Sequence record: OR525698.1
Strand: one strand, 5' to 3'
Source of the DNA: Escherichia phage vB-Eco-KMB43
Length of the DNA: 64,000 bases
Shown in pieces: positions 11,863 through 59,401 of the stretch (positions within the stretch are counted from its first letter, which is position 1; every line of letters begins with the position of its first letter). The position numbers and the translations under genes are program-made. The notes below the pieces were generated by a model, which was not told the DNA's origin, made no database searches, and worked only from the letters and a program-made list of their open reading frames with translations.

Positions 11863-11867
11863 TTATA

Positions 11868-11892
11868 AGCCGTCCTCGTGGGCGGCTTTTTT
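11868..11892 (+). terminator. rho-independent terminator after methyltransferase gene
   Basis: AGCCGTCC..GGGCGGCT hairpin followed by TTTTTT. Confidence 0.55.
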
Positions 11893-11902
11893 GTATGTAT
11901 TT

Positions 11903-11910
11903 TATAAATA
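11903..11910 (+). promoter_or_regulatory. late promoter TATAAATA upstream of gene 9
   Basis: exact TATAAATA about 28 nt upstream of ATG 11938. Confidence 0.5.
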
Positions 11911-11937
11911 ATACATCATAACATGAGGAATTAAACA

Positions 11938-32175: not shown

Positions 32176-33417
32176 ATGACTCATATTTTTACTGAACTGT
32201 TGCGGGAATCTACTTCCTCAGTAGCTAACCAGACAGCGCGACCGCAACTATTATCATTAACTCGCGCGGTAAACAACCTGATTTTCTCTGATCTGGTAGC
32301 AATCCAGCCAACGGATCAACCAGTATCTGCATTGTACGGCCTACGTTATCTTAATCATGATGGTCAGATGACTTTCCGAACTGCTGCAACCTACGGTGGT
32401 GCGGTTGGTGATCGCACAGAGATTGAAGAGTTTTCAAAAGAAAAATCTTATGACGAAGGCGCACTATTCAAATCAGGCGATGTTGTATACGAAGTTGTGA
32501 CCGCTGGTACAGTCGGTGAAGATGCCGAAACTCCAGAAGCTGCGATCTTTAAAGGCGTAATGACAAACAAAATTCGTTTCTATAGCGATTGTGCATCGGT
32601 AGAATACTTTGAAGATAAAAACACCGAAATTGCGTCTACCTCTATGCAGTTTGACAAGTGGCAAGTTAATGTAGGTTCTCGTAAACTGAAAACCTCGTTC
32701 ACCACTGAATTAATGCAGGATCTTGAGGCAAGCCAAATCAACTCTGAAAACTCTGTAATTGATCTTCTGGCTACTGTTGCTTCAGAAGAGATCAACAAAG
32801 ATATTATTCAGAAGTTGATCACTGTATCATCTCGCTATAAAATTAAAGGGATCACCCCTGATGGCGTACTTTCTCTCGTTAGCGTTCAGGATGCACCAAC
32901 ACAAGCGCGTGAACTTTACCGCTATGCTTGCGAGATGAGCAATCAAATGTTGCGGACTTCCTCCTTTGCTGGTACATACGTTTTGGCGTCTTCTCGCGTG
33001 GTTGGCCTCCTGCAATCTTCCGGTTGGATGGAAGAAACCGACAATGCTCTAAGCGAAGGTCGTCTACGTTGCGGTCTGGAAGTGTACGCAGACACGACAA
33101 CACCTTTCGATTATATGCTCGTTGGTTGTAAGCACATGATCGGTGATATGGAGAGTGTCGGTTCTCTGTTCTACTCCCCATATACAGAAGCCGACGGCGC
33201 TGGCGCGTATAAGAGCGTAATTGACCCTAATAGCTTCCAGCATCATGTAGCTATTATGAATCGTTATTCACTCTCTGTCAACCCATATACATCAAAAGTT
33301 GATCAGGAAGAACACCAGGTCATCAAGGGTGACGATTGGGGTAAAATGGCTGGACGTTCAGAAATGTCCTACATTTTAGGAATCGAACTGCCACCGCTTG
33401 AGATTGACAACGCTTAA
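32176..33417 (+). CDS. gp24: head vertex protein gp24
   Basis: in-frame ATG 32176 (MTHIFTELL) downstream of the late promoter; the ORF-track start at 32110 would place the promoter inside the gene; gp23-paralogue position. Confidence 0.8.
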   Translation: MTHIFTELLRESTSSVANQTARPQLLSLTRAVNNLIFSDLVAIQPTDQPVSALYGLRYLNHDGQMTFRTAATYGGAVGDRTEIEEFSKEKSYDEGALFKSGDVVYEVVTAGTVGEDAETPEAAIFKGVMTNKIRFYSDCASVEYFEDKNTEIASTSMQFDKWQVNVGSRKLKTSFTTELMQDLEASQINSENSVIDLLATVASEEINKDIIQKLITVSSRYKIKGITPDGVLSLVSVQDAPTQARELYRYACEMSNQMLRTSSFAGTYVLASSRVVGLLQSSGWMEETDNALSEGRLRCGLEVYADTTTPFDYMLVGCKHMIGDMESVGSLFYSPYTEADGAGAYKSVIDPNSFQHHVAIMNRYSLSVNPYTSKVDQEEHQVIKGDDWGKMAGRSEMSYILGIELPPLEIDNA

Positions 33418-34005
33418 CTAAATATCTAACCAAGACAAGTCAGATCCGCCCAAGATTTTTTCGACGGCGGATCTATTTTCTTGATGATATAAGTTAAAAC
33501 ATGGTATCCCATGTCTACGGGCAACATAAACAGCAATTCTAGTTCCTCCCGAAACGATTCCATTAACTTCTTTCGCCCAAAATATCACACAATCTACCGG
33601 ATCATCAAGTGTCTCACCTAAGACTTGAGCAACATTTCTAGAAAACAGATTTTGCATGTATAACGGTATAGAACGAGGATTATCATAAACATGTTCTAAT
33701 TCATCCATCGCCAGATTTTTTTGTTCTAAGGTTTGCCATGCAATCACATCATGACCGTTATGCTTGTGGTCATAAAACTTCCAATTTGGAATGAAAATTT
33801 TTCTATAATCTGGATCGTAATACTTCATGAAAGCATTGTCCATACCGTAAGCCCCTCCAGAATGCGCTACAACGCGATTTTCTGACAATACCCTCCCAAT
33901 GGTACTAGCCATTATCAAAATGTCGCTAGGCGCTTTTCTAGAGCCGATTAAAGCACATCTACGAAGTGGTTTTACTCCAAATAGATCTTGTAACTGGTCA
34001 AACAT
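33418..34005 (-). CDS. DprA/Smf-like (SLOG-type Rossmann) domain protein
   Basis: 195 aa; motifs LIGSRKAP, HSGGAYGMD, LFSRNVAQVLG, SGGTRIAVYVARRHGIP matching the DprA core pattern GSR / SG.A.G.D / RNR / SGS..TA. Confidence 0.45.
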   Translation of the reverse strand: MFDQLQDLFGVKPLRRCALIGSRKAPSDILIMASTIGRVLSENRVVAHSGGAYGMDNAFMKYYDPDYRKIFIPNWKFYDHKHNGHDVIAWQTLEQKNLAMDELEHVYDNPRSIPLYMQNLFSRNVAQVLGETLDDPVDCVIFWAKEVNGIVSGGTRIAVYVARRHGIPCFNLYHQENRSAVEKILGGSDLSWLDI

Positions 34006-34158
34006 AATATTTCCTCCATAGAAAGCAATATCATACTACAAGTTAATAACAAATACAAGTATCCGCGTAGCGGAAGCGAGCACAGCGAGCATTAAAAACA
34101 CTTCCAGTAATTGATTAATAAATGTTCGAAACAAATTTTTATTATTTTATAAGATAAG

Positions 34159-34329
34159 TCTTCGTTTTGATCATAATTTAAACATACATGTAAAACTACA
34201 CAAAAGGATATCGCTTCGCGAACTCCTACGGAGTATAACATTTGTGTTACAATATGTAGTGATTAATAATTAACCAAAGATACATTTTCTATGTTCTAAA
34301 GATCTTTCTTCGTTTTGATCATAATTTAA
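34159..34329. repeat. pair of direct repeats (23-bp core TCTTCGTTTTGATCATAATTTAA at 34159-34181 and 34307-34329) in AT-rich non-coding region
   Basis: two identical 23-mers plus shared downstream CATGTAAA(A)CT about 148 bp apart. Confidence 0.6.
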
Positions 34330-34385
34330 TCAAACAGTATTAATATTGTGCACATGTAAACTAAAATTATGTTAATAATAGATAC

Positions 34386-34410
34386 AAAAAAGCCGCCCAG
34401 AAGGACGGCT
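34386..34410 (-). terminator. rho-independent terminator (minus strand)
   Basis: AGCCGCCCAGAAGGACGGCT hairpin with T-run on the minus strand, just downstream of the ORF ending at 34419. Confidence 0.6.
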
Positions 34411-34418
34411 AATGTTAA

Positions 34419-34856
34419 TTATTTGTTGATAACGATCTGATTTCGGCGAATGGTAACATTACTCTTAGAGATGATCAGATCATCCGGCACTACGTTAGTT
34501 TTGTATGGTTGGAATCGAACAAGCATCTGATTGCGTTTAGACCCTTCCTTAATCTTGATTTCCATCTGGATATTGTTGCCTACGTGAGCAACCGCAATTT
34601 CACCTTTATTCTCATAGACCCACTTGCTGGTAACGTCTCCAGCAAAAGCCTTAATAACTTGCAATGCTTCGTCGTATGCGGTAGAGCTGTGAACTTTCAG
34701 AAGGCCAGCCGTAGCAAGACGGGAGCAGGTGATCGCCGGAGATTGCCAAACATCAACATTAATTTGCTCAATCATAGTAACACCGCCCTGATCAACTGCT
34801 TTGAATGCTTCGAACATTGCCTTTTTCATTGCTACGTGGTTTTTACGGAATTTCAT
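34419..34856 (-). CDS. hypothetical protein (145 aa)
   Basis: ORF in the 24.x position; no recognised motifs. Confidence 0.4.
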   Translation of the reverse strand: MKFRKNHVAMKKAMFEAFKAVDQGGVTMIEQINVDVWQSPAITCSRLATAGLLKVHSSTAYDEALQVIKAFAGDVTSKWVYENKGEIAVAHVGNNIQMEIKIKEGSKRNQMLVRFQPYKTNVVPDDLIISKSNVTIRRNQIVINK

Positions 34857-34902
34857 AATTATTCACCTCTATTGATTAGTTATTCAGAATATTAATTACA
34901 AA

Positions 34903-35375: not shown

Positions 35376-35569
35376 ACTTCACCTCATACATTCATAAACA
35401 CAACAACGAATAGGACAGTAACAGTTATTAAAGCCATTTTCAACCCCATATTCATAATATTTTCCTCATAGGGTAACGCCCTGTCGATGCGTGCCATTAT
35501 AGGCATCTAAATCGCTCTGTCAAGCACAAAAACAAAAAAGCCACCCCGAAGGATGGCTGATAGATTTCA

Positions 35570-51174: not shown

Positions 51175-51245
51175 TTGATACTCCTTAGTAGTTCGTTTCG
51201 GTATGGGTGTATTATGATATACACCCTCTGTTATGTCAACAACTT
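51175..51245 (-). promoter_or_regulatory. promoter/5'UTR cassette copy 1 (PeSL-like)
   Basis: minus-strand TTGACA (plus 51234-51239), 17-bp spacer, CATAAT, conserved UTR ...ACACCCATACCGAAACGA..AAGGAG. Confidence 0.6.
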
Positions 51246-51425
51246 TTAGAACATTTTTGAAATCAATTCTGCTTTGATTTCGCAGAGAACATCTAAAGAT
51301 TTCTCGTCACCTGCTTTTGCTGCTTCTGCTTGCATTTTTGAAATGGCTTCAATGTCGGTGCAATTATAAGCCGCTTGAACTTTAGCGATTGCGATGATTG
51401 CCGATTCGATGGTTAAGTGTTTCAT
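51246..51425 (-). CDS. hypothetical small protein (59 aa)
   Basis: ATG 51425 directly downstream of cassette copy 2; not in ORF track. Confidence 0.4.
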   Translation of the reverse strand: MKHLTIESAIIAIAKVQAAYNCTDIEAISKMQAEAAKAGDEKSLDVLCEIKAELISKMF

Positions 51426-51495
51426 GTTTGATTCCCCTTTCGTTTCGGTATGTGTGTATTATAGGGGATCACCGATCCCCCTGTCAACAACTTTT
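51426..51495 (-). promoter_or_regulatory. promoter/5'UTR cassette copy 2 (PeSL-like)
   Basis: TTGACA (plus 51482-51487), palindromic spacer GGGGGATCGGTGATCCCC, TATAAT, conserved UTR. Confidence 0.65.
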
Positions 51496-51498
51496 TAG

Positions 51499-52014
51499 TT
51501 ATTTTTTTAATTGCTCATCTTGCAATAGGGCAATCACATGCTGGCGATGTTCTTCCGATTGAGGCACACCGAAAAAGTTTGTTTTGTAGAAATACTCTAA
51601 TCGGTCTTCTCGTGTGCTCTCTTCCATCATGATCGCGGGTAGTCCGAGATTTCGGAAACGTCGCTTTTCTGCTGGCGTAAAATCACTGTAATACAACATA
51701 GAATCATCATTACCAGCAATGCTAAACTCATCCTTCATAAAGGAGAATATTGCGTTTAAACGCTGTTTACCGTCCACGATTTCGATCTCATAGCGAGAGC
51801 CATCATCAATCTTAGCCATTGCGATAGCACCGACCGGAAAATCATTAATCAGGTTTTCGATAAACATACGTTTGTTTTCGGTGTCCCATACCAAAGGACG
51901 CTGATAATCTGGGTTCATGTTGATATAGCCATCTTCTAACCATGCTTCGTAAACAGAGATGACAAAGTTTTTAGTATTGGTATAGTAACGGCGTTTAGGC
52001 GTTAAACGGTTCAT
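51499..52014 (-). CDS. DUF262 / ParB-like nuclease-domain protein
   Basis: motifs DYQRPLVW and VDGKQR; ATG 52014 with AGGAGA SD, 1 nt after the upstream stop; ORF-track alternative start 52050. Confidence 0.55.
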   Translation of the reverse strand: MNRLTPKRRYYTNTKNFVISVYEAWLEDGYINMNPDYQRPLVWDTENKRMFIENLINDFPVGAIAMAKIDDGSRYEIEIVDGKQRLNAIFSFMKDEFSIAGNDDSMLYYSDFTPAEKRRFRNLGLPAIMMEESTREDRLEYFYKTNFFGVPQSEEHRQHVIALLQDEQLKK

Positions 52015-52015
52015 G

Positions 52016-52348
52016 TTATAGTCTCCTGAATGGATCATCACGTAAATCAATATCTTTTAAGAACTCATCCCATGAATGGCGGATATTGTTCTTAATTCTC
52101 CAGATAAGCGCAGGGATTGAACGCTCTCCCATCTGGAAGTATGGATCATATGATCCGTATGCCCAATATGCTACTACAATTCCACAATCAGCGCAATAGT
52201 ATTCTATTTCACTTGCTGGCGACCAAAGTCCATCAATATGATCGGTGATCTTGCTTTCGATGTTATGGCTATGACAATCAGGGCAACGGATGCAATGACC
52301 TTGTTTATCGTAATTTGACGTTAGCGAATACTTAAACAATCTCATCAT
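52016..52348 (-). CDS. zinc-ribbon protein (two CxxC pairs)
   Basis: 110 aa; CIRCPDC ... CADCG; start overlaps upstream stop (ATGA). Confidence 0.45.
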   Translation of the reverse strand: MMRLFKYSLTSNYDKQGHCIRCPDCHSHNIESKITDHIDGLWSPASEIEYYCADCGIVVAYWAYGSYDPYFQMGERSIPALIWRIKNNIRHSWDEFLKDIDLRDDPFRRL

Positions 52349-53061
52349 AGATCCTTATTTGCTTCAAATACTGCCTTTGCGAATCCTCGCGGGGTAAGTG
52401 ACCTGATAGTCTTTGTTTTCGTTCCTTTCCCGCCTAGCTTAGAATGCTGTTTACTGTACCCTTTATTAATCTGCAAAGGTTTCTTTTCTGGCATTATAAA
52501 GCCTTGTCCGGTCCATAAGCAAGTCTTTTTCGGGTACATATCACGGGCGGCGATATACTCAGGAAAAGTAGGATGTTTATCATCTTCCGGCAAATAACCG
52601 CCATATTCCCACGGATGGAACATATAATCAGGCTTACGCCACATGCTAGAGATAACGCTTACAGGATTCTCTATCATGTAGGGAACTCCTAGCCATTCAC
52701 CCAAATAAGCGGTTATTTTAGCTGCCCGTACATCATGAACTTGAATCAATGGTCCTTGCTCTCGTTTCTTTCGTTCAAAGTGTGCAGCGCCACTAACAGC
52801 TAAATTGGTGCACGGTGGGAATGCAAAGATAATATCCGGTTTCCCCCATTCAAGGTCCATTGCTCTTTCCAGCCAGTTCAAATCAATCCAGGTGTTTACA
52901 TAGGTAATGTTTGGATGTTCAAATCTGGTATTATACTTTTTGTATGTACCGTGGTCGGCGTCATCCGCATTAAAGCAGACTACCTTATGACCTGCTTTAG
53001 CCCATTCTAGCCCCATTATCCCCGATCCGTCAAAGTTACAGAATATTAATTTTTGTTTCAT
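52345..53061 (-). CDS. C5-cytosine methyltransferase-fold protein (atypical PCT motif)
   Basis: 238 aa; motif I-like FCNFDGSGIMG, motif IV-like DIIFAFPPCTNLAVSGA, motif VI-like MIENP; no obvious target-recognition domain. Confidence 0.5.
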   Translation of the reverse strand: MKQKLIFCNFDGSGIMGLEWAKAGHKVVCFNADDADHGTYKKYNTRFEHPNITYVNTWIDLNWLERAMDLEWGKPDIIFAFPPCTNLAVSGAAHFERKKREQGPLIQVHDVRAAKITAYLGEWLGVPYMIENPVSVISSMWRKPDYMFHPWEYGGYLPEDDKHPTFPEYIAARDMYPKKTCLWTGQGFIMPEKKPLQINKGYSKQHSKLGGKGTKTKTIRSLTPRGFAKAVFEANKDL

Positions 53062-53303
53062 ATACGCCCCTTTAATCCAACACAGATTTTAGAAGGTTCT
53101 TTGCCGTGCCACATTAAGTAAAGTCCATTAATGCGGCCTTGTTTTGTATATGATTCTTTTCTGATCTTCTTATAGTGTCGTGCTTCCTCAGCCGATTGTT
53201 TAGAATACCAATCATAAAGGAAGAGGCACAAAGGCCAACCATTAGCGGCCTTAATGCAGTTATTAAGAAATTCCTTATTGCGTTTAATTAATTTTCTTTT
53301 CAC
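53058..53303 (-). CDS. hypothetical basic protein (81 aa)
   Basis: ORF with overlapping start/stop in the operon. Confidence 0.4.
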   Translation of the reverse strand: MKRKLIKRNKEFLNNCIKAANGWPLCLFLYDWYSKQSAEEARHYKKIRKESYTKQGRINGLYLMWHGKEPSKICVGLKGRI

Positions 53304-53551
53304 GCTGCCCCCATTGGTTTGATAGTAACAGAATCTAAAAGACCTTTGTTAGCCAGTTCGCGGCAAGTTTTCAGATCCGCAACTTCCCAGCCAGCCGCAA
53401 TCAGGTTATCGATGAGGCTGTTAGCAACTTCTTCGCTCATGAAAGAGCACTGTTTGCCGATGGTGTAGCGTACACGCTGTAATTTCAGTTTACGGAAGCC
53501 TTTAACGTTCAGGTCTTTAGCGATTTTCTTTGCGGTTTCGATGTTAGCCAT
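53300..53551 (-). CDS. hypothetical protein (83 aa), first gene of the operon
   Basis: ATG directly downstream of cassette copy 3 (AGGAGAATCAAACAATG). Confidence 0.45.
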   Translation of the reverse strand: MANIETAKKIAKDLNVKGFRKLKLQRVRYTIGKQCSFMSEEVANSLIDNLIAAGWEVADLKTCRELANKGLLDSVTIKPMGAA

Positions 53552-53628
53552 TGTTTGATTCTCCTAAGTGGTATCTAGTCTTGATGGTTGTATTGTAGGG
53601 GAGTTATCCTCCCCTGTCAACACTTTTT
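53552..53628 (-). promoter_or_regulatory. promoter/5'UTR cassette copy 3 (PeSL-like)
   Basis: TTGACA (plus 53615-53620), palindromic spacer GGGGAGGATAACTCCCC, TACAAT, conserved UTR. Confidence 0.6.
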
Positions 53629-53634
53629 ATAAAA

Positions 53635-53802
53635 TTATTTGTTAATTTCCGGTGCGTTGCTAGGATAGTAACCTTCTTTAACTCCGAGGTATTTCGCAAC
53701 CATCCCTACAATCTTCTGTGCTACTACAATGTCAAATTTCAGATAATCTTCGCCGTGGGTTTCAATGATATATGCTTCACATGCTGCTTTAGTCTCGAAC
53801 AT
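53635..53802 (-). CDS. hypothetical small protein (55 aa), paralogue of 57256-57423
   Basis: ATG after cassette copy 4; about 87% amino-acid identity to the second copy. Confidence 0.5.
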   Translation of the reverse strand: MFETKAACEAYIIETHGEDYLKFDIVVAQKIVGMVAKYLGVKEGYYPSNAPEINK

Positions 53803-53873
53803 TTTGATTCTCCTATTTCGTTTCGGTATGTGTGTATTATAGGGGATCTCCCGATCCCCGTCAACAACTTTTT
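53803..53873 (-). promoter_or_regulatory. promoter/5'UTR cassette copy 4 (PeSL-like)
   Basis: TTGACG (plus 53860-53865), palindromic spacer GGGATCGGGAGATCCCC, TATAAT. Confidence 0.6.
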
Positions 53874-53880
53874 TTTAAAA

Positions 53881-54162
53881 TTATTCGTGATTAGTTTCGA
53901 TGTTGTGCATTTTGCACCAGTTCAGCCAATCACCCAGATCCTGATAGTTAATGCTTTTATCTGCTGCCATCGTTTTTGTCTTGATACCCATATGTGCGTT
54001 ATGAGTAAGCATTTTTACAGTGAACTCAATTTTATCACCTTTAGCTTTAACATCAACCAGTTTGGTCCACTGGCTACCAGCGCCGCGAATGTTCATACCA
54101 ACGATGTTTCCGATGTATGCTTCTTTGTTTTTCAGGATTTCGGTTGCTTTGATGAATTTCAT
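53881..54162 (-). CDS. hypothetical protein (93 aa)
   Basis: ORF downstream of cassette copy 5. Confidence 0.45.
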   Translation of the reverse strand: MKFIKATEILKNKEAYIGNIVGMNIRGAGSQWTKLVDVKAKGDKIEFTVKMLTHNAHMGIKTKTMAADKSINYQDLGDWLNWCKMHNIETNHE

Positions 54163-54232
54163 TTTTGATTCTCCAGTTCGTTTCGGTATGTGTGTATTAT
54201 GCTATTTTCTTACTTTGGTGTCAACAACTTTT
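54163..54232 (-). promoter_or_regulatory. promoter/5'UTR cassette copy 5 (PeSL-like)
   Basis: TTGACA (plus 54219-54224), CATAAT, conserved UTR. Confidence 0.55.
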
Positions 54233-54233
54233 T

Positions 54234-54503
54234 TTAGATATTTTCAGAAATAAATTTTAAAACTTGACGTAAATGTTTCTCATCTTTGATAGTCGCCGGA
54301 AGTTCTTCTTTTACTTCCTGTGCAAGATAGATATTTCCGTTCCAAGTGAAAGATCCGTCTTCGTTTACGCGATAGCTGAACATCCACTCGCAATCATTTT
54401 CGATTTCATATACACACAGAAGAGTGTAATCTTCAAAGCTATTGATTTCAAGGTCGAAGCCGTGACGTTTTGCAAAGTTGGTAGTGGTTTTAGTCAGTGC
54501 CAT
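54234..54503 (-). CDS. hypothetical protein (89 aa)
   Basis: ORF downstream of cassette copy 6. Confidence 0.45.
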   Translation of the reverse strand: MALTKTTTNFAKRHGFDLEINSFEDYTLLCVYEIENDCEWMFSYRVNEDGSFTWNGNIYLAQEVKEELPATIKDEKHLRQVLKFISENI

Positions 54504-54580
54504 TGTTTGATTCTCCTAAGTGGTATCTCGTCTTGATGGGTGTATTATGCTATAGGCGTGATCTGGTGTCAATGCTTTTT
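54504..54580 (-). promoter_or_regulatory. promoter/5'UTR cassette copy 6 (PeSL-like)
   Basis: TTGACA (plus 54567-54572), 17-bp spacer, CATAAT. Confidence 0.55.
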
Positions 54581-54820
54581 TTAATTTTATGCAATAAAAA
54601 GACGACACTAAGGTCGGCACATTTTAAAAATTCTTGCCATATATGCAAGCCTCATAATCTAGAGGATGACCGCCAATCCTACCCGGCTTAATATTCCAAC
54701 CGCATCGATATTTGCTGACCATGCTAACAGTTTCGGTTCTTAGAGCATTTTCTTTGCAAATCATACCCCATAAATTCTTTTCTATAAGGACAGTCCGCTT
54801 TGCAAGTTGGCGGTTCTACG

Positions 54821-55012
54821 TCATTTAGCGGGTCGGAAGCAGTTGGCTTTATTATCAATTCTTTGTTTGCAATAATCATAAGCACATCCCATTGAAGACA
54901 ATTTAACATCTTCGCAATAAGTGTTGAATCCGTCAAACACGGTCACTTCGTATTTGACTCCATCAGCGATAGCTTTTACTTTATACCATCCATGCTTGTA
55001 TAAAATCTTCAT
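54821..55012 (-). CDS. hypothetical Cys-rich protein (63 aa)
   Basis: ATG directly downstream of cassette copy 7; overlapped out of frame by ORF 54724-54936. Confidence 0.4.
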   Translation of the reverse strand: MKILYKHGWYKVKAIADGVKYEVTVFDGFNTYCEDVKLSSMGCAYDYCKQRIDNKANCFRPAK

Positions 55013-55082
55013 CTTTATTTCCTCAATCTCGTTTCGATGGGTGTATTATGCTATAGGCTAGACCAGGTTGTCAACAACTTTT
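55013..55082 (-). promoter_or_regulatory. promoter/5'UTR cassette copy 7 (PeSL-like)
   Basis: TTGACA (plus 55069-55074), CATAAT, conserved UTR. Confidence 0.55.
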
Positions 55083-55103
55083 TTAATTTTTTGGAAATAA
55101 AAA

Positions 55104-55124
55104 AGCCGACGCTAAGGTCGGCTA
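55104..55124 (-). terminator. rho-independent terminator (minus strand)
   Basis: AGCCGACGCTAAGGTCGGCT hairpin with TTTTTT on the minus strand; degenerate copy at 54597-54620. Confidence 0.6.
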
Positions 55125-55130
55125 ATAAAA

Positions 55131-55439
55131 TCATTTAGACAAATAATCATTCTGTGCAATCCGGTCGGCGTATGCTGGTGTTACGTCAATCGCCAACACT
55201 TTAACGCGTGCTTTCTTGCGACCTGGGTTTTCTCGTAACCAGTGCTCATGACCGTGCACATTTTTATATTTTGATGCGGTTTCGAAGGTACGGATCGGAC
55301 CTGGATAATCTGCGTAAAGGATCTCTAGGTCTTCGGTGATGTAAAAATATACATCATAATTACTGTTCTCTAGTTTAAGCAGAGAATTGCGAAATTGTGG
55401 TAAATTCTCGCGGGTAAATTCAACTACAAGATTTTTCAT
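55131..55439 (-). CDS. small protein, paralogue family A (HxHW ... AxDV.P..AD), member 1
   Basis: ATG 55439 with GAGGA SD; HEHW and VLAIDVTPAYAD motifs. Confidence 0.5.
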   Translation of the reverse strand: MKNLVVEFTRENLPQFRNSLLKLENSNYDVYFYITEDLEILYADYPGPIRTFETASKYKNVHGHEHWLRENPGRKKARVKVLAIDVTPAYADRIAQNDYLSK

Positions 55440-55468
55440 AGTGATATCCTCATTCAGATAGATTAAAA

Positions 55469-55483
55469 GGGGCTTAACGCCCC
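55469..55483 (-). terminator. hairpin terminator (minus strand)
   Basis: GGGGCTTAACGCCCC palindrome, identical to 50941-50955. Confidence 0.5.
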
Positions 55484-55488
55484 GTATA

Positions 55489-55776
55489 TTAAAACAGTCC
55501 TTCCTGTACACCGTAGTAGAGTTCGTCACTGATAATTTCATTAATGCGACGGTGTGCATATTCCTGATTTGCGAAGTTGTCAGCAAGTTCTACTTTAGTT
55601 TCGCCGTCATGAGTCCATTTAGTGATAACTTTACCATCTGCAAATTTGAAGTTGAACTCTTTAGCTACTGCATCGCGTACCAGACGTGCGAACTTGTTGT
55701 TACGGATTGCATTATCGGTTTCGTGTGCAGCGTGAGCAAATTTGTTAACTTTCAGAGTGATAGTAATGTATGCCAT
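55489..55776 (-). CDS. small protein, paralogue family B, member 1
   Basis: 95 aa; LVRDAVAKEFNFK shared with 58658-58969 (LIREVRKALAKEFNTK). Confidence 0.5.
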   Translation of the reverse strand: MAYITITLKVNKFAHAAHETDNAIRNNKFARLVRDAVAKEFNFKFADGKVITKWTHDGETKVELADNFANQEYAHRRINEIISDELYYGVQEGLF

Positions 55777-55859
55777 AATTTGATTCTCCTAGTTAGAAAG
55801 TGTATCTCGTTTCGATGGGTGTATTATGCTATACACCCGATCCATTGTCAACGCCTTTT
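55777..55859 (-). promoter_or_regulatory. promoter/5'UTR cassette copy 8 (PeSL-like)
   Basis: TTGACA (plus 55846-55851) overlapping the stop codon of the upstream ORF; CATAAT. Confidence 0.55.
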
Positions 55860-56183
55860 TATAAAATAATTTTCGATATCTTTATGATGTTTTTCTCGTG
55901 CTTGGTCTGCCTCGGCTGGCGATACGTTGGAAGCGATAATCTTCACTACTGTTGCACCTTTTTCGGTGTCCGACACCCAATGATTATGGAAACCGCTATT
56001 ATTAAACACTTGATAAGAAAATGATTTAATGCTAGGGAAATTATATGTGTAATAGCGTACCTTTAATTCTGAATCTATGTATAGATAGATCACCGCACCT
56101 AGATAGACCGTCTCACTCGTTCCATCAACTAACAGTAGAGTATTTCGCAATTCTTCTAAATTGTCTTTTGTAAGAAAAATCAT
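55848..56183 (-). CDS. small protein, paralogue family A, member 2
   Basis: 111 aa; LYIDSELKVRYY, HNHW, IIASNVSPAEAD. Confidence 0.5.
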   Translation of the reverse strand: MIFLTKDNLEELRNTLLLVDGTSETVYLGAVIYLYIDSELKVRYYTYNFPSIKSFSYQVFNNSGFHNHWVSDTEKGATVVKIIASNVSPAEADQAREKHHKDIENYFIKRR

Positions 56184-56197
56184 AGTATAATCCTCAA

Positions 56198-56533
56198 TTA
56201 AACCAAATTAACTTTGGTGTTGTGGTGTTTTTCTCGTGCTTCGTCCGCTTCTTCCGGTGTCACGTTACGAGCGACTACAATAACACTTGCTGCCTCTCCG
56301 TGATGAGAGATCTCTACCCAATGGTTATGATTTGTGAATCCGTGTTTTATTGCGTAAGCGAACGGCTTGGACGTCCAGTAGTTACTATAATATCGTACAT
56401 TTAGATCGCTATCAATGTACAAATATGTGCTGTCGTTTACATTGCCACTAACAACAAAAACAAGACAATTGCGAAGATCTGGCAATATTTTGTCTGTCAA
56501 TTTTATAATGTGACTGTTCATAATTAACACCAC
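56198..56533 (-). CDS. small protein, paralogue family A, member 3
   Basis: 111 aa; LYIDSDLNVRYY, HNHW, VVARNVTPEEAD. Confidence 0.5.
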   Translation of the reverse strand: MVLIMNSHIIKLTDKILPDLRNCLVFVVSGNVNDSTYLYIDSDLNVRYYSNYWTSKPFAYAIKHGFTNHNHWVEISHHGEAASVIVVARNVTPEEADEAREKHHNTKVNLV

Positions 56534-56733
56534 TCAAGAGTTTTTGAAAACACATCTATCCATTGTTGAGTATATGCAGTTTCTTTCCACGAGACAATAC
56601 CAGTAGAATAATGATTCTTGTTTCCAGAAAAGGACGGGCATTTTGATGCATCTTCCATCATCTTTTCGGCGAACTCTGGTTCGTATACTCGCAAGATCTG
56701 TTGATATGCTTTGTAGTCTTTAAATTTGCTCAT
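56524..56733 (-). CDS. hypothetical small protein (69 aa)
   Basis: ORF between family A members. Confidence 0.4.
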   Translation of the reverse strand: MSKFKDYKAYQQILRVYEPEFAEKMMEDASKCPSFSGNKNHYSTGIVSWKETAYTQQWIDVFSKTLEWC

Positions 56734-56998
56734 AATCGTTAACTACCTTATCAGCTTCTTTTATTGTTTTTACATCAACTGCGATAACCCGTAAAGGTTC
56801 GTCGTGGTTCCACCAATGATCGTGAATATCAGCTTGTGATTTATCACCAAAGGAATCACGAATATCATTTTTACATTTATAGCTAATGTGACCGTCATAG
56901 TCAACATAAAGGTAATTATCGAAAATCGGCGTTTTTAAGATCATGCCGAAAAATCTTTCTTTGTGTGTCTTATCCAGTGTTGCAGTAATTCGCATCAT
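56720..56998 (-). CDS. small protein, paralogue family A, member 4
   Basis: 92 aa; HDHW, VIAVDVKTIKEAD; AGAGGAA SD. Confidence 0.5.
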   Translation of the reverse strand: MMRITATLDKTHKERFFGMILKTPIFDNYLYVDYDGHISYKCKNDIRDSFGDKSQADIHDHWWNHDEPLRVIAVDVKTIKEADKVVNDYEQI

Positions 56999-57010
56999 AA
57001 TATATTCCTC

Positions 57011-57190
57011 TTAGAAAGGGATGGTCATTTCTTGAGCTTGTACATTCTCGTTAGGATTAAACTTCATCCAACCGATATTGTCTACCAGCATATGCACATT
57101 TTTATCATATCCTACGTGAGTAGTCAATACTAAATGTGCTTTACCTTCAACGATGATTTCCATGTACTTCTGAACTTCGATAGCTTTCAT
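57011..57190 (-). CDS. hypothetical small protein (59 aa)
   Basis: ATG directly downstream of cassette copy 9; not in ORF track. Confidence 0.4.
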   Translation of the reverse strand: MKAIEVQKYMEIIVEGKAHLVLTTHVGYDKNVHMLVDNIGWMKFNPNENVQAQEMTIPF

Positions 57191-57191
57191 T

Positions 57192-57255
57192 TTTGATTCT
57201 CCGTTTGTTGTCTTGATGGGAGTATATTACTACTCCCTTTAATCATTGTCAACTA
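57192..57255 (-). promoter_or_regulatory. promoter/5'UTR cassette copy 9 (PeSL-like)
   Basis: TTGACA (plus 57247-57252), 17-bp spacer, TAATAT; palindrome GGGAGTA..TACTCCC. Confidence 0.5.
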
Positions 57256-57423
57256 TTATTTGTTAATTTCCGGTGCGTTGCTCGGATAGTAACCTTCTTT
57301 AACACCCAGATATTTTGCGACCATTCCGGTGATCTTCTGTGCTACTACAATGTCAAATTTCAGGTAGTCTTCACCGTGGTTTGCTACAATGTATGCTTCG
57401 CATTCTGCTTTAGTCTGGAACAT
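57256..57423 (-). CDS. hypothetical small protein (55 aa), paralogue of 53635-53802
   Basis: near-identical nucleotide and protein sequence to the first copy; ATG after cassette copy 10. Confidence 0.5.
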   Translation of the reverse strand: MFQTKAECEAYIVANHGEDYLKFDIVVAQKITGMVAKYLGVKEGYYPSNAPEINK

Positions 57424-57493
57424 TTTTGATTCTCCTATATCTCGTTGGTATGTGTGTAGTATAGGGGATCACCGATCCCCTGTCAACAACTTT
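57424..57493 (-). promoter_or_regulatory. promoter/5'UTR cassette copy 10 (PeSL-like)
   Basis: TTGACA (plus 57481-57486), palindromic spacer GGGGATCGGTGATCCCC, TATACT. Confidence 0.6.
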
Positions 57494-57802
57494 TTATTCT
57501 TCATCTTCATCTTTATCTTGATATGCGTACGTCATAAATTTGTCTGCTACTTTGTCCGCGTTTTCAGGTTCTACGTCTGACGCTAGGACAACAGCTAGTT
57601 CTGTTTTGTCGTTTCCATCATACCAATGATTATGAGTGTCGTTTTCTTCGATATAAAACGAATCATTTGGAGTTGTGCGACAATATACGTCTAAATTCCC
57701 ATCGATATAAAAGATCCAATCCGAATACAAAATGATTGTTTTAGCAAGATTTTTATTGCCTTCAACGAAAGGTTCGGCTACAAACAAATTAGTATGTTCC
57801 AT
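57494..57802 (-). CDS. small protein, paralogue family A, member 5
   Basis: ATG 57802 with GAGGA SD; HNHW, LAVVLASDVEPENAD. Confidence 0.5.
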   Translation of the reverse strand: MEHTNLFVAEPFVEGNKNLAKTIILYSDWIFYIDGNLDVYCRTTPNDSFYIEENDTHNHWYDGNDKTELAVVLASDVEPENADKVADKFMTYAYQDKDEDEE

Positions 57803-57819
57803 AGTATTTTTCCTCAAAA

Positions 57820-58011
57820 TTATACAGCTTCGTAAACTTCCCAATGTCCAACACCAGCACGCTTAACGAAAAGGTTTTCTTTTATGTTATTCATAAACGT
57901 CTGGATGGATTTAATTCGTTTGGAAGGTTTCCAGTCTTCGTTGGTATTGCGTCGATACATCATAACATTACCAGACCGCTTATATTCAGCAACCATTTTA
58001 AGACCACACAT
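57820..58011 (-). CDS. hypothetical small protein (63 aa)
   Basis: ATG 58011 with GAGGA SD downstream of cassette copy 11. Confidence 0.4.
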   Translation of the reverse strand: MCGLKMVAEYKRSGNVMMYRRNTNEDWKPSKRIKSIQTFMNNIKENLFVKRAGVGHWEVYEAV

Positions 58012-58090
58012 AATATTATCCTCAATTTGTGGGAGAGTATTACCCTCCCGATTATTGTTATACTACATTACGCAAAATGGCGTGTCAATG
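58012..58090 (-). promoter_or_regulatory. promoter cassette copy 11 (divergent variant)
   Basis: TTGACA (plus 58083-58088, inside the 3' end of the upstream ORF), TAGTAT; palindrome GGGAG..CTCCC. Confidence 0.4.
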
Positions 58091-58388
58091 CTTCTTTTGC
58101 TGTTCCGCTAAGATTCTCTATCTCTCCTGGCATAACATCAACCGCCAGAACTTCTACAACATCCTCTGATCCTAACCAGTGAGTATGACCTTTGTAGAAC
58201 TTGATAATCAGACTACCTTCCTCATCCCATTTAACGCTATCGCTAGCCCACCACACATCACCGTCGATAAAGTTGATGTAAAGCACACTACGCCACATTG
58301 AATTAATTACTTTCAATACTGCGCCTTTCATATCTTCCACGGTGTGGTCTTCCATTTTGAAGACCTCGCCTACCTGAACTTTTGCCAT
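58068..58388 (-). CDS. small protein, paralogue family A, member 6
   Basis: 106 aa; HTHW, VLAVDVMPGEIEN. Confidence 0.5.
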   Translation of the reverse strand: MAKVQVGEVFKMEDHTVEDMKGAVLKVINSMWRSVLYINFIDGDVWWASDSVKWDEEGSLIIKFYKGHTHWLGSEDVVEVLAVDVMPGEIENLSGTAKEALTRHFA

Positions 58389-58405
58389 TTAGTCACCTCT
58401 CTTTA

Positions 58406-58585
58406 TTACATAACAATTACGCCAGCCGTTGAAAGTTGATGTTTCAACTGAGCATTTTCTGCTACTGTCAAATCAATGATTTCTTGTGACGCTGCAATCA
58501 TATAGCCATTGGTGATATTGTTTTGCATCAGTTCAATGGTTTCTTCGTTGTAGCGGATTTTAGCGATGATTTCGTTGAAGTTCAT
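58406..58585 (-). CDS. hypothetical small protein (59 aa)
   Basis: ATG 58585 directly downstream of cassette copy 12; not in ORF track. Confidence 0.4.
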   Translation of the reverse strand: MNFNEIIAKIRYNEETIELMQNNITNGYMIAASQEIIDLTVAENAQLKHQLSTAGVIVM

Positions 58586-58657
58586 AATTGATTCTCCTAG
58601 TTCGTTTCGGTATGTGTGTATTATAGGGGAGTTTAACCTCCCCTGTCAACAACTTTT
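58586..58657 (-). promoter_or_regulatory. promoter/5'UTR cassette copy 12 (PeSL-like)
   Basis: TTGACA (plus 58645-58650), palindromic spacer GGGGAGGTTAAACTCCCC, TATAAT. Confidence 0.6.
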
Positions 58658-58969
58658 TTAAAGTTTTTCCATGATAACGGTCATAATTACATCTTCTGCG
58701 CGAGCGGTCAGATTATCAGCGTCAGCATGTGGGCGGTTGGTTGTTACAGAGATAACACCGTTGCGCACTGGTTTGATATTGATATCAAGATGATCCGCGA
58801 AACGTTCGCCAGTTACAGAATGAATTTTGGTGTTAAATTCTTTTGCCAGTGCCTTGCGAACTTCACGAATCAGGATAGCGTTTTTCAGTTGGTTCTCCGC
58901 GCTCATGGTCTTCTGAGTGTTCATGGTTCCGTCGAAGTCAATCATTGGCAGCGTTACGATGTATTTCAT
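58658..58969 (-). CDS. small protein, paralogue family B, member 2
   Basis: 103 aa; LIREVRKALAKEFNTK. Confidence 0.5.
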   Translation of the reverse strand: MKYIVTLPMIDFDGTMNTQKTMSAENQLKNAILIREVRKALAKEFNTKIHSVTGERFADHLDINIKPVRNGVISVTTNRPHADADNLTARAEDVIMTVIMEKL

Positions 58970-59056
58970 TTTTGATTCTCCGTTTAAGAAAGTGTGTTTC
59001 GTTTTGATGTGTGTAGTATAGGGGATACGTGATCCCCTGTCAACAACTTTTTTGAA
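58970..59056 (-). promoter_or_regulatory. promoter/5'UTR cassette copy 13 (PeSL-like)
   Basis: TTGACA (plus 59038-59043), palindromic spacer GGGGATCACGTATCCCC, TATACT. Confidence 0.6.
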
Positions 59057-59401
59057 TTATTTTTTCATGAGCTTAATGGCTTCTTCCATAGCCAGCACAT
59101 TTCGATAGTTAGGGTATCGTGTTAGATCGTCATACATTCGCTTAAGGGTGGAAACTTCCTCAAACTCTGGGTTTTCTAGATACAGTTGAACAAATTGTTT
59201 CTCTACCATCTCGGCTTTTAGCTTGTCTGCTTGTTCCTGTTCATATGATTTCGTTGGACCCAACACCAACAAAATGATAAAGGTGATCAACGGGCTAATG
59301 ATCAATGATAGGATAACATAACCAATAACGCTACGGTTTAAACGGCTTGCGTACATGCCTACAAGGAAAACAAAAAGGATATAGATAAACAGAAAGAACA
59401 T
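59057..59401 (-). CDS. small inner-membrane protein (two predicted TM helices)
   Basis: 114 aa; N-terminal hydrophobic segments MFFLFIYILFVFLVGMYA and VIGYVILSLIISPLITFIILLVLG. Confidence 0.5.
   Translation of the reverse strand: MFFLFIYILFVFLVGMYASRLNRSVIGYVILSLIISPLITFIILLVLGPTKSYEQEQADKLKAEMVEKQFVQLYLENPEFEEVSTLKRMYDDLTRYPNYRNVLAMEEAIKLMKK

What the first reader, a model, noticed from the sequence alone, without database searches (positions are those of the whole stretch)
34006..34418. 413-bp AT-rich non-coding region with direct repeats
This is the largest intergenic gap in the window. It contains two copies of TCTTCGTTTTGATCATAATTTAA (34159-34181, 34307-34329), each followed by CATGTAAA(A)CT, and ends in a terminator. 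On the minus strand the repeats contain GTTTACA and TATGAT elements that could be promoter-like, but spacing is non-canonical. It may hold regulatory sites, a small RNA or an origin-like element.
Basis: seen in the sequence. Interest (0 to 1): 0.4.

Follow-up and report, generated by a model that had tools for sequence, protein, structure and literature searches.

The report
Tandem non-coding cassettes in RB49-like phage
The AT-rich gap holds two tandem copies of a conserved ~100-base non-coding cassette, present four times in RB49-type (T4-like) phage genomes, that looks like a tiny promoter-to-terminator unit for a small RNA, though no transcript has been shown.

Summary
The 23-mer occurs exactly twice (none expected by chance), inside a 77-nt repeat spaced 148 nt, in the largest ORF-free and least stable stretch of the window.

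The window is a Krischvirus (RB49/Phi1-like). The gap lies between ORF165 and the DprA-like ORF164, both on the minus strand.

It holds two tandem cassettes. Each has an AT-rich core followed by 5-bp GC hairpins. They are bracketed by the ORF165 terminator and ORF164's own sigma70-type promoter.

Two more copies lie outside the window, directly upstream of the late promoters of gene 36 and gene 3.

The same gap with 2-3 cassettes is kept in seven lineages, down to 50% protein identity. Hairpins show compensatory changes. Copies within a genome resemble each other more than orthologues do.

The invariant part of the 23-mer equals the 5' leader motif of the phage's early mRNAs, and the cassette's other arm is antisense to it.

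Best reading (0.4): small promoter-to-terminator units making 60-100-nt minus-strand RNAs. Rivals are an R-loop origin, an operator array, or a decayed relic. Promoter activity is not established.

The parts
34391..34410 (-). Intrinsic terminator of ORF165 (8-bp stem, tetraloop, T-run to about 34385)
   Evidence: Kept with a UUCG-type loop and T-run in every relative. Related hairpins occur at other window sites.
34334..34384 (-). Hypervariable spacer. It holds AGTTTACATG (34362-34353) and TATTAATACTG. On the plus strand TATTAA (34338-34343) is a weak -10 for a possible antisense promoter with -35 TTGATC (34315-34320).
   Evidence: 19 of 51 sites vary among 11 Krischvirus sequences. The antisense promoter is consensus-like in relatives (TTGATG-17-TATAAT and similar; and sequences) but weak here.
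34259..34333 (-). Cassette A core.
   Evidence: profile HMM E=6e-13 in the RB49 genome. 5% variable sites.
34211..34234 (-). Cassette A hairpins: H1 ACTCC-GTA-GGAGT (34234-34222) and H2 TCGC-GAA-GCGA (34221-34211). A T-rich stretch follows.
   Evidence: Compensatory changes across 9 units: 94% of cells paired, 6 pairs with double changes, 0 of 500 shuffles as good.
34111..34185 (-). Cassette B core. Parts: O1 (34185-34167); 23-mer (34181-34159); -35-position ATGATC (34174-34169); -10-like TATAAA (34151-34146); right arm AAATTTGTTTCGAAC (34138-34124), antisense to the early-leader motif; degenerate O2 (34129-34111).
34076..34090 (-). GCTCGC-TGT-GCTCGC box. It is a direct repeat, not a hairpin, and is conserved in sequence in the last cassette of most lineages.
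   Evidence: Sequences. Function unknown.
34046..34074 (-). Hairpin H3 TCCGC-TAC-GCGGA (34074-34062) plus a T-rich tail. This is the terminator closing the cassette array.
   Evidence: Flagged terminator-like. Compensatory changes across 8 lineages: 97.5% paired, 0 of 500 shuffles as good.
34030..34058 (-). Sigma70-type promoter of ORF164: TTGTAT (34058-34053), 17 bp, TATGAT (34035-34030). Its -35 overlaps the T-tail of H3. The SD GGAGG is at 34017-34013 and the ATG at 34005.
   Evidence: PWM scan. An equivalent promoter sits at the same place in L039, L040, L042, L043 and L087.
33418..34005 (-). ORF164, a DprA-like protein (the downstream gene)
   Evidence: phrog_768 E=1e-60; a weak PF02481 hit; annotation.
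34419..34856 (-). ORF165, 145 aa, function unknown (the upstream gene). The model has a weak winged-helix-like resemblance.

Best explanation
The gap is a tandem pair of a ~90-130-bp non-coding cassette. Krischvirus genomes carry four copies: A and B here, C upstream of tail-fibre gene 36, and D upstream of tail-completion gene 3. Each copy faces the same way as the gene downstream of it.

Reading the minus strand, a cassette has these parts in order:
- An AT-rich core that opens with an imperfect palindrome (TTGATTAAATTATGATCAA).
- The invariant CAAAACGAAGA.
- A -10-like hexamer 17 bp after the TGATCA.
- An AT-rich arm (AAATTTGTTTCG).
- A second palindrome.
- One or two 5-bp GC hairpins followed by T-rich sequence.

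I think each cassette is a tiny self-contained transcription unit. A weak sigma70-type promoter in the core would start a 60-100-nt minus-strand RNA. The 5' part of that RNA would be single-stranded, and its 3' part would be the hairpins plus a U-rich tail, acting as a terminator. Termination would occur before the promoter of the next gene.

In Krischvirus the single-stranded 5' part is antisense to the first ~11 nt of many early mRNAs (AUCGAAACGAA / ACCGAAACGAA). The RNA could therefore act on early transcripts.

Shown here: the repeat family, its conservation in place and architecture, hairpin covariation, terminator-like hairpins on the gene strand, purifying selection, and the leader similarity and complementarity.

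Inferred: promoter activity and which promoter is used, the existence of the RNA, and any target.
For: Family and specificity:
- BLAST and a profile HMM find exactly four copies in the 162-kb RB49 genome (E 6e-15 to 2e-11) and none in about 660 kb of other loci.
- Every copy has the orientation of its downstream gene.

Conservation:
- The order 24.3 - ORF165 - gap of 326-575 nt - ORF164 - gene 24 is kept in seven lineages, down to 48-60% amino-acid identity.
- There are always 2-3 cassettes between the ORF165 terminator and the ORF164 promoter.
- A cassette also sits upstream of gene 3 in the relatives L098 and L100.
- Among Krischviruses, cores and hairpins have 5% variable sites against 37% in the adjacent spacer. 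Flanking genes have 6%; the sites checked by position (ORF165 end) fall on third codon positions.

Hairpins:
- They show compensatory changes: 94-97% of cells paired, 0 of 500 shuffles as good.
- H3 here and H2 of copies C and D are scored terminator-like on the gene strand.
- Copy D has no co-directional gene upstream. Its terminator only makes sense if transcription starts inside the cassette.

Promoter:
- A -10-like hexamer sits 17 bp after the TGATCA in 13 of 16 units.
- Examples: TTGAAC-17-TATAAT in L044 (12.5 bits), TATAAT in L040_1 and L043_1, TAGAAT in C and D, TATAAA in B.

Leader link:
- The motif [AC][CT]C[AG]AAACGA[AG] occurs 20 times in the genome. Four are the cassettes and about 13 are the first bases of early leaders, 6-8 nt after a -10.
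- Right arms pair with early leaders at -12.7 (C), -10.9 (B) and -10.8 (A) kcal/mol (mean of the best 10). Shuffled arms give about -7 to -8 +/- 1.1. This is better than pairing with the cassette's own left arm.

Not coding: the small ORFs are not conserved.
Against: - No sigma70 consensus promoter is found in cassettes A to D by the standard scan.
- The -35 (ATGATC) is poor. The last base of the -10-like hexamer is T in only about a third of units. Cassette A has TTAGAA.
- Promoter-like hexamers can be drawn in three registers and on both strands, so the start site is uncertain.
- The hairpins have only 5 bp, and their T-tracts are interrupted or offset. H1 and H2 of cassette A were not flagged as terminators.
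- The loops are GNA triloops closed by C-G. That motif is far more stable in DNA than in RNA (PMC13037366). Almost no G-U pairs are seen. Neither point favours an RNA role.
- Predicted RNAs do not fold better than shuffles, except cassette A.
- There is no Rfam match.
- The antisense match to leaders could follow simply from the cassette being a quasi-palindrome built on a leader-like arm. The only early leader available from another lineage does not match that lineage's arm.
- No transcript data exist.
Confidence: 0.4

Rival explanations
1. R-loop-type replication origin(s). A promoter in the core fires into the easily melted AT-rich stretch, which acts as a DNA unwinding element. The transcript stays hybridised and primes leading-strand synthesis, as at T4 oriF and oriG. 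The GC mini-hairpins form on the displaced single strand. The three loci in the genome would be the phage's origins.
For: - T4 oriF and oriG need only about 100 bp: a promoter plus an A+T-rich DUE. T4 origins lie in late-gene regions near strand switches, and oriE uses an early promoter (PMC3016281).
- The gap is the least stable duplex of the 64-kb window at 100-400 bp.
- All three loci lie in late-gene regions. Two are at or next to convergent or divergent junctions and near cumulative GC-skew extremes.
- 24 of 26 hairpin loops are GNA, or its complement, closed by C-G. That gives GCGAAGC, GCGTAGC or CCGAAGG (alignments).
- These are the 'mini-hairpin DNA' motifs: very stable as DNA, weak as RNA, and reported at the phage G4 origin, RSF1010 ssiA and N4 promoters (PMC13037366).
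- In relative L099 the place upstream of gene 3 holds about 8 iterons instead of a cassette.
Against: - All of this is resemblance; nothing measures replication.
- Promoters in the Krischvirus copies are weak.
- T4 origins share no sequence motif, so homology cannot be tested.
- The skew extremes follow gene orientation.
- GCGNAGC is not enriched in the window as a whole.
- Terminator-like hairpins directly after the DUE would cut short the primer RNA.
Confidence: 0.17
2. An array of protein-binding sites (operators or an insulator). The 19-bp palindromes (consensus TTGATTAA-N3-TTAATCAA, two per cassette) and the CAAACG box would bind a phage-encoded dimer, possibly ORF165. This would control the promoter just downstream or organise the DNA locally.
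For: - The palindromes are perfect or nearly so in several lineages (L040, L042). In the window they occur only at this locus.
- The spacer between the '-35' and '-10' positions is better conserved than the hexamers, which is unusual for a plain promoter.
- Copies within a genome are 69% alike against 52% between lineages (p=6e-9, pairs not independent). This is expected if the sites co-evolve with one binding protein.
- The ORF165 fold is weakly winged-helix-like.
- The same CAAACGA motif sits at +1 of early promoters, so a single protein could see both.
Against: - No DNA-binding domain is detected by sequence in ORF165.
- The palindromes are degenerate in cassette B and in L039, L087 and L044.
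- Concerted evolution can also come from gene conversion in a highly recombinogenic phage.
- This model does not explain the covarying hairpins.
Confidence: 0.13
3. Relic or plain insulator. The cassettes would be decayed remains of early promoter-leader cassettes (PeSL type) whose ORF was lost, duplicated in tandem and kept homogeneous by recombination. Only the hairpins would still work, as extra terminators shielding downstream promoters.
For: - The left arm equals the PeSL leader motif.
- In other T4-like genera RNA ligase 2 sits where this gap is, so gene loss at this spot is plausible.
- Overall gap identity to close relatives (0.63-0.66) is about that of 4-fold degenerate sites (0.57-0.73).
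- Promoter hexamers are decayed in A and B.
- PeSL recombination is documented in phi1 and RB49 (PMC2839356).
Against: - The cassette architecture has survived to 50% protein identity at two separate loci.
- Cores show about 7-fold fewer variable sites than the adjacent spacer.
- Canonical PeSLs (TTGACA-GGGG..CCCC-TATAAT) look quite different.
- Copy D needs no shielding from upstream transcription.
Confidence: 0.15
4. One reading: the repeats are tandem minus-strand promoters (GTTTACA as -35, TATGAT as -10) driving ORF164.
For: TTTACA matches TTGACA at 5 of 6 positions. Both elements are on the strand of ORF164.
Against: - The spacing is 13 bp in B, and in A there is no -10 at 16-18 bp.
- GTTTACA lies in the hypervariable spacer and is not kept in relatives.
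- A terminator (H3) and a separate conserved promoter lie between the repeats and ORF164.
Confidence: 0.04

Closest known systems
PeSL cassettes (promoter-early stem-loop) of phi1/RB49, Arbiol et al. 2010 (PMC2839356); Comeau et al. 2014 (PMC4122927)
   Same: Same phages. Both are ~100-bp repeated intergenic motifs combining an AT-rich stretch, sigma70-type hexamers and a stem-loop. Both are thought to act as promoter plus terminator and to recombine with each other. The H3 hairpin plus the ORF164 promoter is a PeSL-like terminator-promoter junction. The cassette's left arm equals the PeSL leader motif.
   Different: PeSLs carry consensus TTGACA/TATAAT with a GGGG..CCCC stem between or over the hexamers, and they run straight into an SD and start codon. 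The cassettes here have poor hexamers. Their hairpins are 5-bp GNA-triloop stems 30-60 nt downstream. No ORF follows. They sit in the virion-gene regions, upstream of late promoters. The PeSL papers do not mention this locus.
T4 oriF (uvsY) and oriG (34) R-loop origins (review PMC3016281)
   Same: About 100 bp consisting of a promoter followed by an A+T-rich unwinding element. Several copies per genome, in late-gene regions near strand switches.
   Different: T4 uses MotA-dependent middle promoters. There is no sequence similarity and no replication data here. Terminator-like hairpins follow the AT-rich part.
Trans-acting bacterial or phage small RNAs in sibling copies (for example OmrA/OmrB; own knowledge)
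   Same: A short unit with a conserved single-stranded 5' region, 3' hairpins and a U-rich tail. Paralogous copies, including a tandem pair. A 10-11-bp complementarity to a set of mRNA 5' regions.
   Different: No transcript has been shown, the promoter is weak and ambiguous, the terminator hairpins are very short, and there is no Rfam family.
Mini-hairpin DNA motifs GCGNAGC / CCGAAGG (review PMC13037366)
   Same: H1, H2 and H3 are exactly these sequences: a GNA triloop closed by C-G.
   Different: The known cases act in single-stranded DNA, in priming or N4 transcription. Here nothing shows that the DNA becomes single-stranded, and the loop is on either strand depending on the copy.

Membership tests
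PeSL (Arbiol 2010) | Sigma70-consensus early promoter (TTGACA / TATAAT, 16-18 bp) | tested here: not met
   No such site inside 34060-34385 or in copies C and D. Canonical PeSLs of the same window score 13-15.6 bits. The cassettes score 7 or less.
PeSL (Arbiol 2010) | Stem-loop within or overlapping the promoter, often polyG/polyC | tested here: not met
   The hairpins lie 30-60 nt after the -10-like hexamer, have 5 bp and carry GNA loops. An AT-rich inverted repeat around the -10 exists in some units only.
PeSL (Arbiol 2010) | SD and start codon of a downstream ORF at the 3' end | tested here: not met
   Cassette A is followed by cassette B. B, C and D are followed by a separate promoter.
PeSL (Arbiol 2010) | Repeated ~100-bp motif with an AT-rich upstream part | tested here: met
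   Four copies per genome; AT-rich.
Intrinsic (Rho-independent) terminator | GC-rich hairpin immediately followed by a T-run on the transcribed strand | tested here: met
   Met for ORF165's terminator and H3 and for H2 of copies C and D. H1 and H2 of cassette A were not flagged.
T4-type R-loop origin (oriF/oriG) | Promoter directly upstream of an A+T-rich unwinding element | tested here: inconclusive
   The AT-rich, least stable region is present. The promoter is only weakly predicted.
T4-type R-loop origin (oriF/oriG) | Persistent R-loop, or autonomous replication of a plasmid carrying the element in infected cells | not testable with these tools
   Needs experiment.
Iteron origin (T4 oriE-like or plasmid) | Cluster of evenly spaced short direct repeats | tested here: not met
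   Only two copies, 148 bp apart. True iterons are seen only in relative L099, at the gene 3 locus.
Trans-acting small RNA | Own promoter and terminator, giving a discrete transcript | tested here: inconclusive
   Terminator-like hairpins are present, the promoter is ambiguous, and there are no transcript data.
Trans-acting small RNA | Conserved unpaired region complementary to target mRNAs | tested here: inconclusive
   Complementarity to early leaders in Krischvirus is significant against shuffles. It could not be confirmed in other lineages.
Any Rfam family | Covariance-model match | tested here: not met
   nothing near gathering scores over the cassettes.
Type III toxin-antitoxin (ToxI-like) repeat array | Several tandem ~36-nt repeats just upstream of a toxin gene | tested here: not met
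   Two units of 148 nt. The other copies precede structural genes.
MITE-like mobile element | Terminal inverted repeats, target-site duplication, variable insertion sites | tested here: inconclusive
   The arms are imperfect and inconsistent. Positions are conserved across lineages. Target-site duplications were not examined.

The most novel reading that the evidence does not exclude
The cassettes are a four-gene family of small 'anti-leader' RNAs. Their 5' ends pair with the conserved first ~11 nt (AUCGAAACGAA / ACCGAAACGAA) of a dozen or more early mRNAs. This would give RB49-type phages, which have only early and late promoter classes (Desplats 2002, from memory), an RNA-based way to switch off or stabilise the early transcript class as a block. 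Alternatively, or in addition, the same promoter-plus-AT-rich units are the phage's so far unmapped R-loop replication origins.
Probability: 0.2. Interest if true: 0.75.

Novelty: new variant of a known kind. Interest (0 to 1): 0.5.

Why it matters
RB49-type phages are widely used therapy candidates, yet neither their replication origins nor their early-to-late switch has been worked out. I found no description of their origins in the literature I could search (the review PMC2993671 has no occurrence of 'replication origin' or 'iteron').

A conserved, concertedly evolving non-coding cassette sits at three places in the virion-gene regions. It carries the early-mRNA leader motif on one arm and its antisense on the other. 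That makes it a concrete, cheap-to-test candidate for either function.

It also shows that the published PeSL picture does not cover all repeated regulatory DNA in these genomes. Finally, it explains why metagenome assemblies of these phages break at this spot.

Tried and rejected
- Small proteins: the ORFs of 23-49 aa in the gap are frameshifted or lose their start codon in relatives.
- Known RNA families: no Rfam match.
- Dam/GATC cluster, as at oriC or P1 oriR: GATC is not enriched. The gap has 3, the window mean per 413 bp is 2.5, and L042 has none.
- T4 late promoter TATAAATA inside the gap: none. It is present only after copies C and D.
- Enrichment of GCGNAGC in the window: none (18 observed against 16.5 expected).
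- A universal long inverted repeat around the -10: present in RB49 C and D, L040_2, L043_2, L043_3 and L044, but absent or shifted in cassettes A and B, L087 and L039.
- More distant DNA homologues: blastn finds only 58 Krischvirus records. A 17-mer scan of viral contigs gave only chance hits apart from two Krischviruses. The metagenome scan added almost nothing.
- Other T4-like genera: the DprA-like gene is preceded by RNA ligase 2 with no gap.
- GC skew as an origin marker: the extremes follow gene orientation.
- A whole-genome RNAduplex scan timed out and was replaced by motif counts and a leader set.
- The afdb50 fold library was not available, and the Desplats 2002 paper is not held.

Full report
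**Where we are.** The window is a Krischvirus, an RB49/Phi1-like T4-type phage. Fifty-eight phage records match 33400-34900 at 95-99% identity. In Phi1 the flanking genes are ORF165 (window 34419-34856) and ORF164, a 'DprA-like' protein (33418-34005). Both are on the minus strand. Gene 24 converges on ORF164 from the plus strand. Everything below is read on the minus strand unless stated.

- The 23-mer is present exactly twice, and no other match with up to 3 mismatches exists in 64 kb. Zero matches were found in 100 shuffles.
- The two copies are the core of a 77-nt direct repeat, 71% identical and spaced 148 nt.
- The gap has 29% G+C against 41% for the window.
- It is the least stable duplex of the window at 100-400 bp.
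- It is the largest internal stretch without an ORF of 60 aa or more.
- The hairpin at 34391-34410 is the terminator of ORF165.
- The small ORFs in the gap are not conserved. The 49-aa frame is shifted in L039 and the 18-aa ATG is lost in L045.
- No Rfam family matches.

**Anatomy from comparison.** DNA searches find only Krischviruses. I therefore followed homologues of ORF164 and ORF165 into metagenome contigs.

The order 24.3 - ORF165 - gap - ORF164 - gene 24 is kept in seven lineages, down to 48-60% protein identity. The gap is always large (326-575 nt). Its layout is always the same:
1. The ORF165 terminator.
2. Two or three tandem cassettes.
3. A last hairpin with a T-rich tail.
4. A sigma70-type promoter whose -35 overlaps that tail. 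Here it is TTGTAT-17-TATGAT at 34058-34030.

When the units are anchored on the near-invariant 'C AAA(A)CG', they line up over about 100 nt. From 5' to 3' a unit contains:
- An imperfect 19-bp palindrome, O1 (TTGATTAA-N3-ATGATCAA).
- The CAAACG box.
- A -10-like hexamer exactly 17 bp after the TGATCA.
- An AT-rich stretch.
- A second palindrome, O2 (TTGGTTAAT-N-ATTAATCAC).
- One or two GC hairpins.

**A dispersed family.**
- A BLAST of the gap against a complete RB49 genome shows two further copies outside the window.
- A profile HMM finds exactly four copies (E 6e-15 to 2e-11) and nothing else.
- Copy C lies between the terminator of the preceding tail-fibre gene and a perfect late promoter (TATAAATA) for the gene 36-like tail-fibre gene.
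- Copy D lies in a divergent gap, just before an AATAAATA late-like promoter. The gene there belongs to the gp19 family and is followed by gene 1 and acb1, which makes it T4 gene 3.
- Each copy has the orientation of the gene downstream of it.
- Relatives L098 and L100 also carry a cassette upstream of gene 3. L099 carries about eight iterons there instead.
- Many metagenome contigs end inside these regions (L041, L042, L088, L089, L090, L100), as expected for a repeat.

**Signs of selection.**
- Hairpins H1 and H2 (nine units) and H3 (eight lineages) are 94-97% paired. Six plus three pairs are changed on both sides, and 0 of 500 shuffles reach this. I picked the hairpins by eye at homologous places, which favours pairing. 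The slid-partner controls drop to 22-50% for H1/H2 (22-56% for H3).
- Among 11 Krischvirus sequences, cores and hairpins have about 5% variable sites. The spacer 34384-34334 has 37%. Flanking coding DNA has about 6%. The six variable sites at the ORF165 end lie on third codon positions; the ORF164 sites were not checked.
- Overall the gap diverges about as fast as 4-fold degenerate sites in close relatives, and more slowly than saturated sites in distant ones. So the constraint is on blocks and architecture, not on every base.
- Units within one genome are 69% identical, against 52% between lineages. This means either concerted evolution or co-evolution with a shared partner.

**Promoters.** This is the weak point. 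The standard scan finds no sigma70 promoter in cassettes A to D. Three registers can be drawn.
- Forward promoter. The -35 is ATGATC or TTGAAC, then 17 bp, then TATAAT-like. It is excellent in L044 (12.5 bits) and good in L040_1 and L043_1. Copies C and D have TAGAAT, B has TATAAA, and A has a decayed TTAGAA.
- Antisense promoter on the plus strand. The -35 is TTGATC (TTG is invariant because the CAAA box is invariant) and the -10 is the reverse complement of a conserved TTATACTG. It is consensus-like in the first unit of most relatives, weak here (TATTAA at 34338-34343), and absent in L098.
- Upstream promoter using TAAATT or TAAAAT inside O1.

Canonical early promoters of this phage (PeSLs) look very different: TTGACA-GGGG..CCCC-TATAAT. 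The PeSL papers do not mention this locus.

**Why I still favour a small transcription unit.**
- The hairpins are terminator-like on the gene strand: H3 and H2 of copies C and D.
- The array is closed by a conserved terminator even though ORF165 has its own.
- Copy D has no co-directional gene upstream, so a terminator there only makes sense for transcription that starts in the cassette.
- With the forward promoter the RNA would be 60-100 nt. It would have a conserved single-stranded 5' part, then H1 and H2 (or H3), then a U-rich tail. That is the usual build of a small RNA.

**The leader link.**
- The motif [AC][CT]C[AG]AAACGA[AG] occurs 20 times in the RB49 genome. Four are the left arms of the cassettes. 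About 13 are the first bases of early mRNAs, 6-8 nt after the -10 of PeSL promoters. So the invariant part of the 23-mer is the early-leader motif.
- The right arm of the cassette is antisense to it: AAATTTGTTTCGGTT in C and D, and ..CGAAC in B at 34138-34124. That gives 10-11 contiguous pairs including one G-U.
- Against 59 early leaders, the best-ten mean duplex energy is -12.7 (C), -10.9 (B) and -10.8 (A) kcal/mol. Shuffled arms give -7 to -8 +/- 1.1. Pairing is better than with the cassette's own left arm.
- Caveats: the leaders are one repeated motif, so this is one event, not 13. A quasi-palindrome built on a leader-like arm would show the same thing. The single early leader available from another lineage does not match that lineage's arm.

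**Rivals.**
- *Origin.* This reading rests on several resemblances:
  - T4 oriF and oriG are a promoter plus an AT-rich unwinding element of about 100 bp, and T4 origins sit in late regions near strand switches (PMC3016281).
  - The gap is the least stable stretch of the window.
  - The hairpin loops (24 of 26 GNA or its complement, closed by C-G: GCGAAGC, CCGAAGG) are the 'mini-hairpin DNA' motif. It is very stable as DNA, weak as RNA, and known from priming sites (PMC13037366).
  - Iterons replace the cassette in L099.
  - Against it: none of this measures replication, and Foldseek, Pfam and PDB sequence searches give nothing.
- *Operator array.* This explains the palindromes and the conserved spacer, but not the hairpins.
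- *Relic of lost PeSL cassettes.* This fits the leader-like arm and the fact that other T4-like genera have RNA ligase 2 at this place. It does not fit the long-term conservation.

**Verdict.** This is a real, conserved and, as far as the held literature shows, undescribed family of non-coding cassettes. The finding is its tandem pair. The function is not settled. The best-supported model is a small promoter-to-terminator unit (0.4). A possible anti-leader role and an origin role are the interesting, testable alternatives.

Noticed in passing
L099 1040-1240 (Logan SRR29026054_4852, 152.8-kb contig), upstream of the gene 3 homologue: A 561-nt gap holds about eight direct repeats of (T)GAATCGCTAG(TG), like iterons, followed by GC hairpins. 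It sits exactly where Krischvirus and L098 have a cassette.
   Followed up: partly
L039 2270-2440 (IMGVR_UViG_3300005711_000029): This relative has an extra ~200 nt between the last cassette and ORF164. It contains a long hairpin (GATACCCTAAAA ... TTTTAGAGGGTAT) that looks like a structured leader. It is absent from the window.
   Followed up: no
window 51200-59100, minus strand: An array of canonical PeSL early promoters (aaaaagttg TTGACA GGGGATC..GATCCCC TATAAT). They share a strikingly conserved transcript start, ACACACAT-ACCGAAACGAA-..GGAGAATCAAA-ATG. The reason for conserving the first ~20 transcribed bases is unknown.
   Followed up: partly
L091, L092, L093 (Proteus, Klebsiella T4-like phages): In other T4-like genera the DprA-like gene directly follows RNA ligase 2 (rnlB) with no gap. 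In the Krischvirus lineage ORF165 plus the cassette gap occupy that place. DprA-like homologues are present in 1434 phage records.
   Followed up: partly
window 34334-34384: This stretch, between the ORF165 terminator and cassette A, is hypervariable among Krischviruses (19 of 51 sites, including a block replacement). Everything around it is about 95% invariant.
   Followed up: partly
window 11865-11912, 35532-35561, 55099-55126: Copies of the same terminator hairpin family as the ORF165 terminator (AAAAAGCC..GGC TTTTT). These account for the extra 'places' that BLAST reports per genome.
   Followed up: partly
L046 (OQVL01003522.1) 1501-1683: In this metagenome contig only residues 1-61 of ORF164 match (97%), suggesting a truncated or recombined ORF164 downstream of an intact cassette pair.
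   Followed up: no
L041, L042, L088, L089, L090, L100: Six independent metagenome contigs end inside or right next to a cassette, consistent with assemblers breaking at this multi-copy repeat.
   Followed up: no
OZ035808.1 140570-140824 (just outside the window start): An 84-aa coiled-coil ORF (phrog_17832) is inserted in reverse orientation between gene 2 and gene 3, with its own late-type promoter. It forms the divergent gap that holds cassette D.
   Followed up: partly
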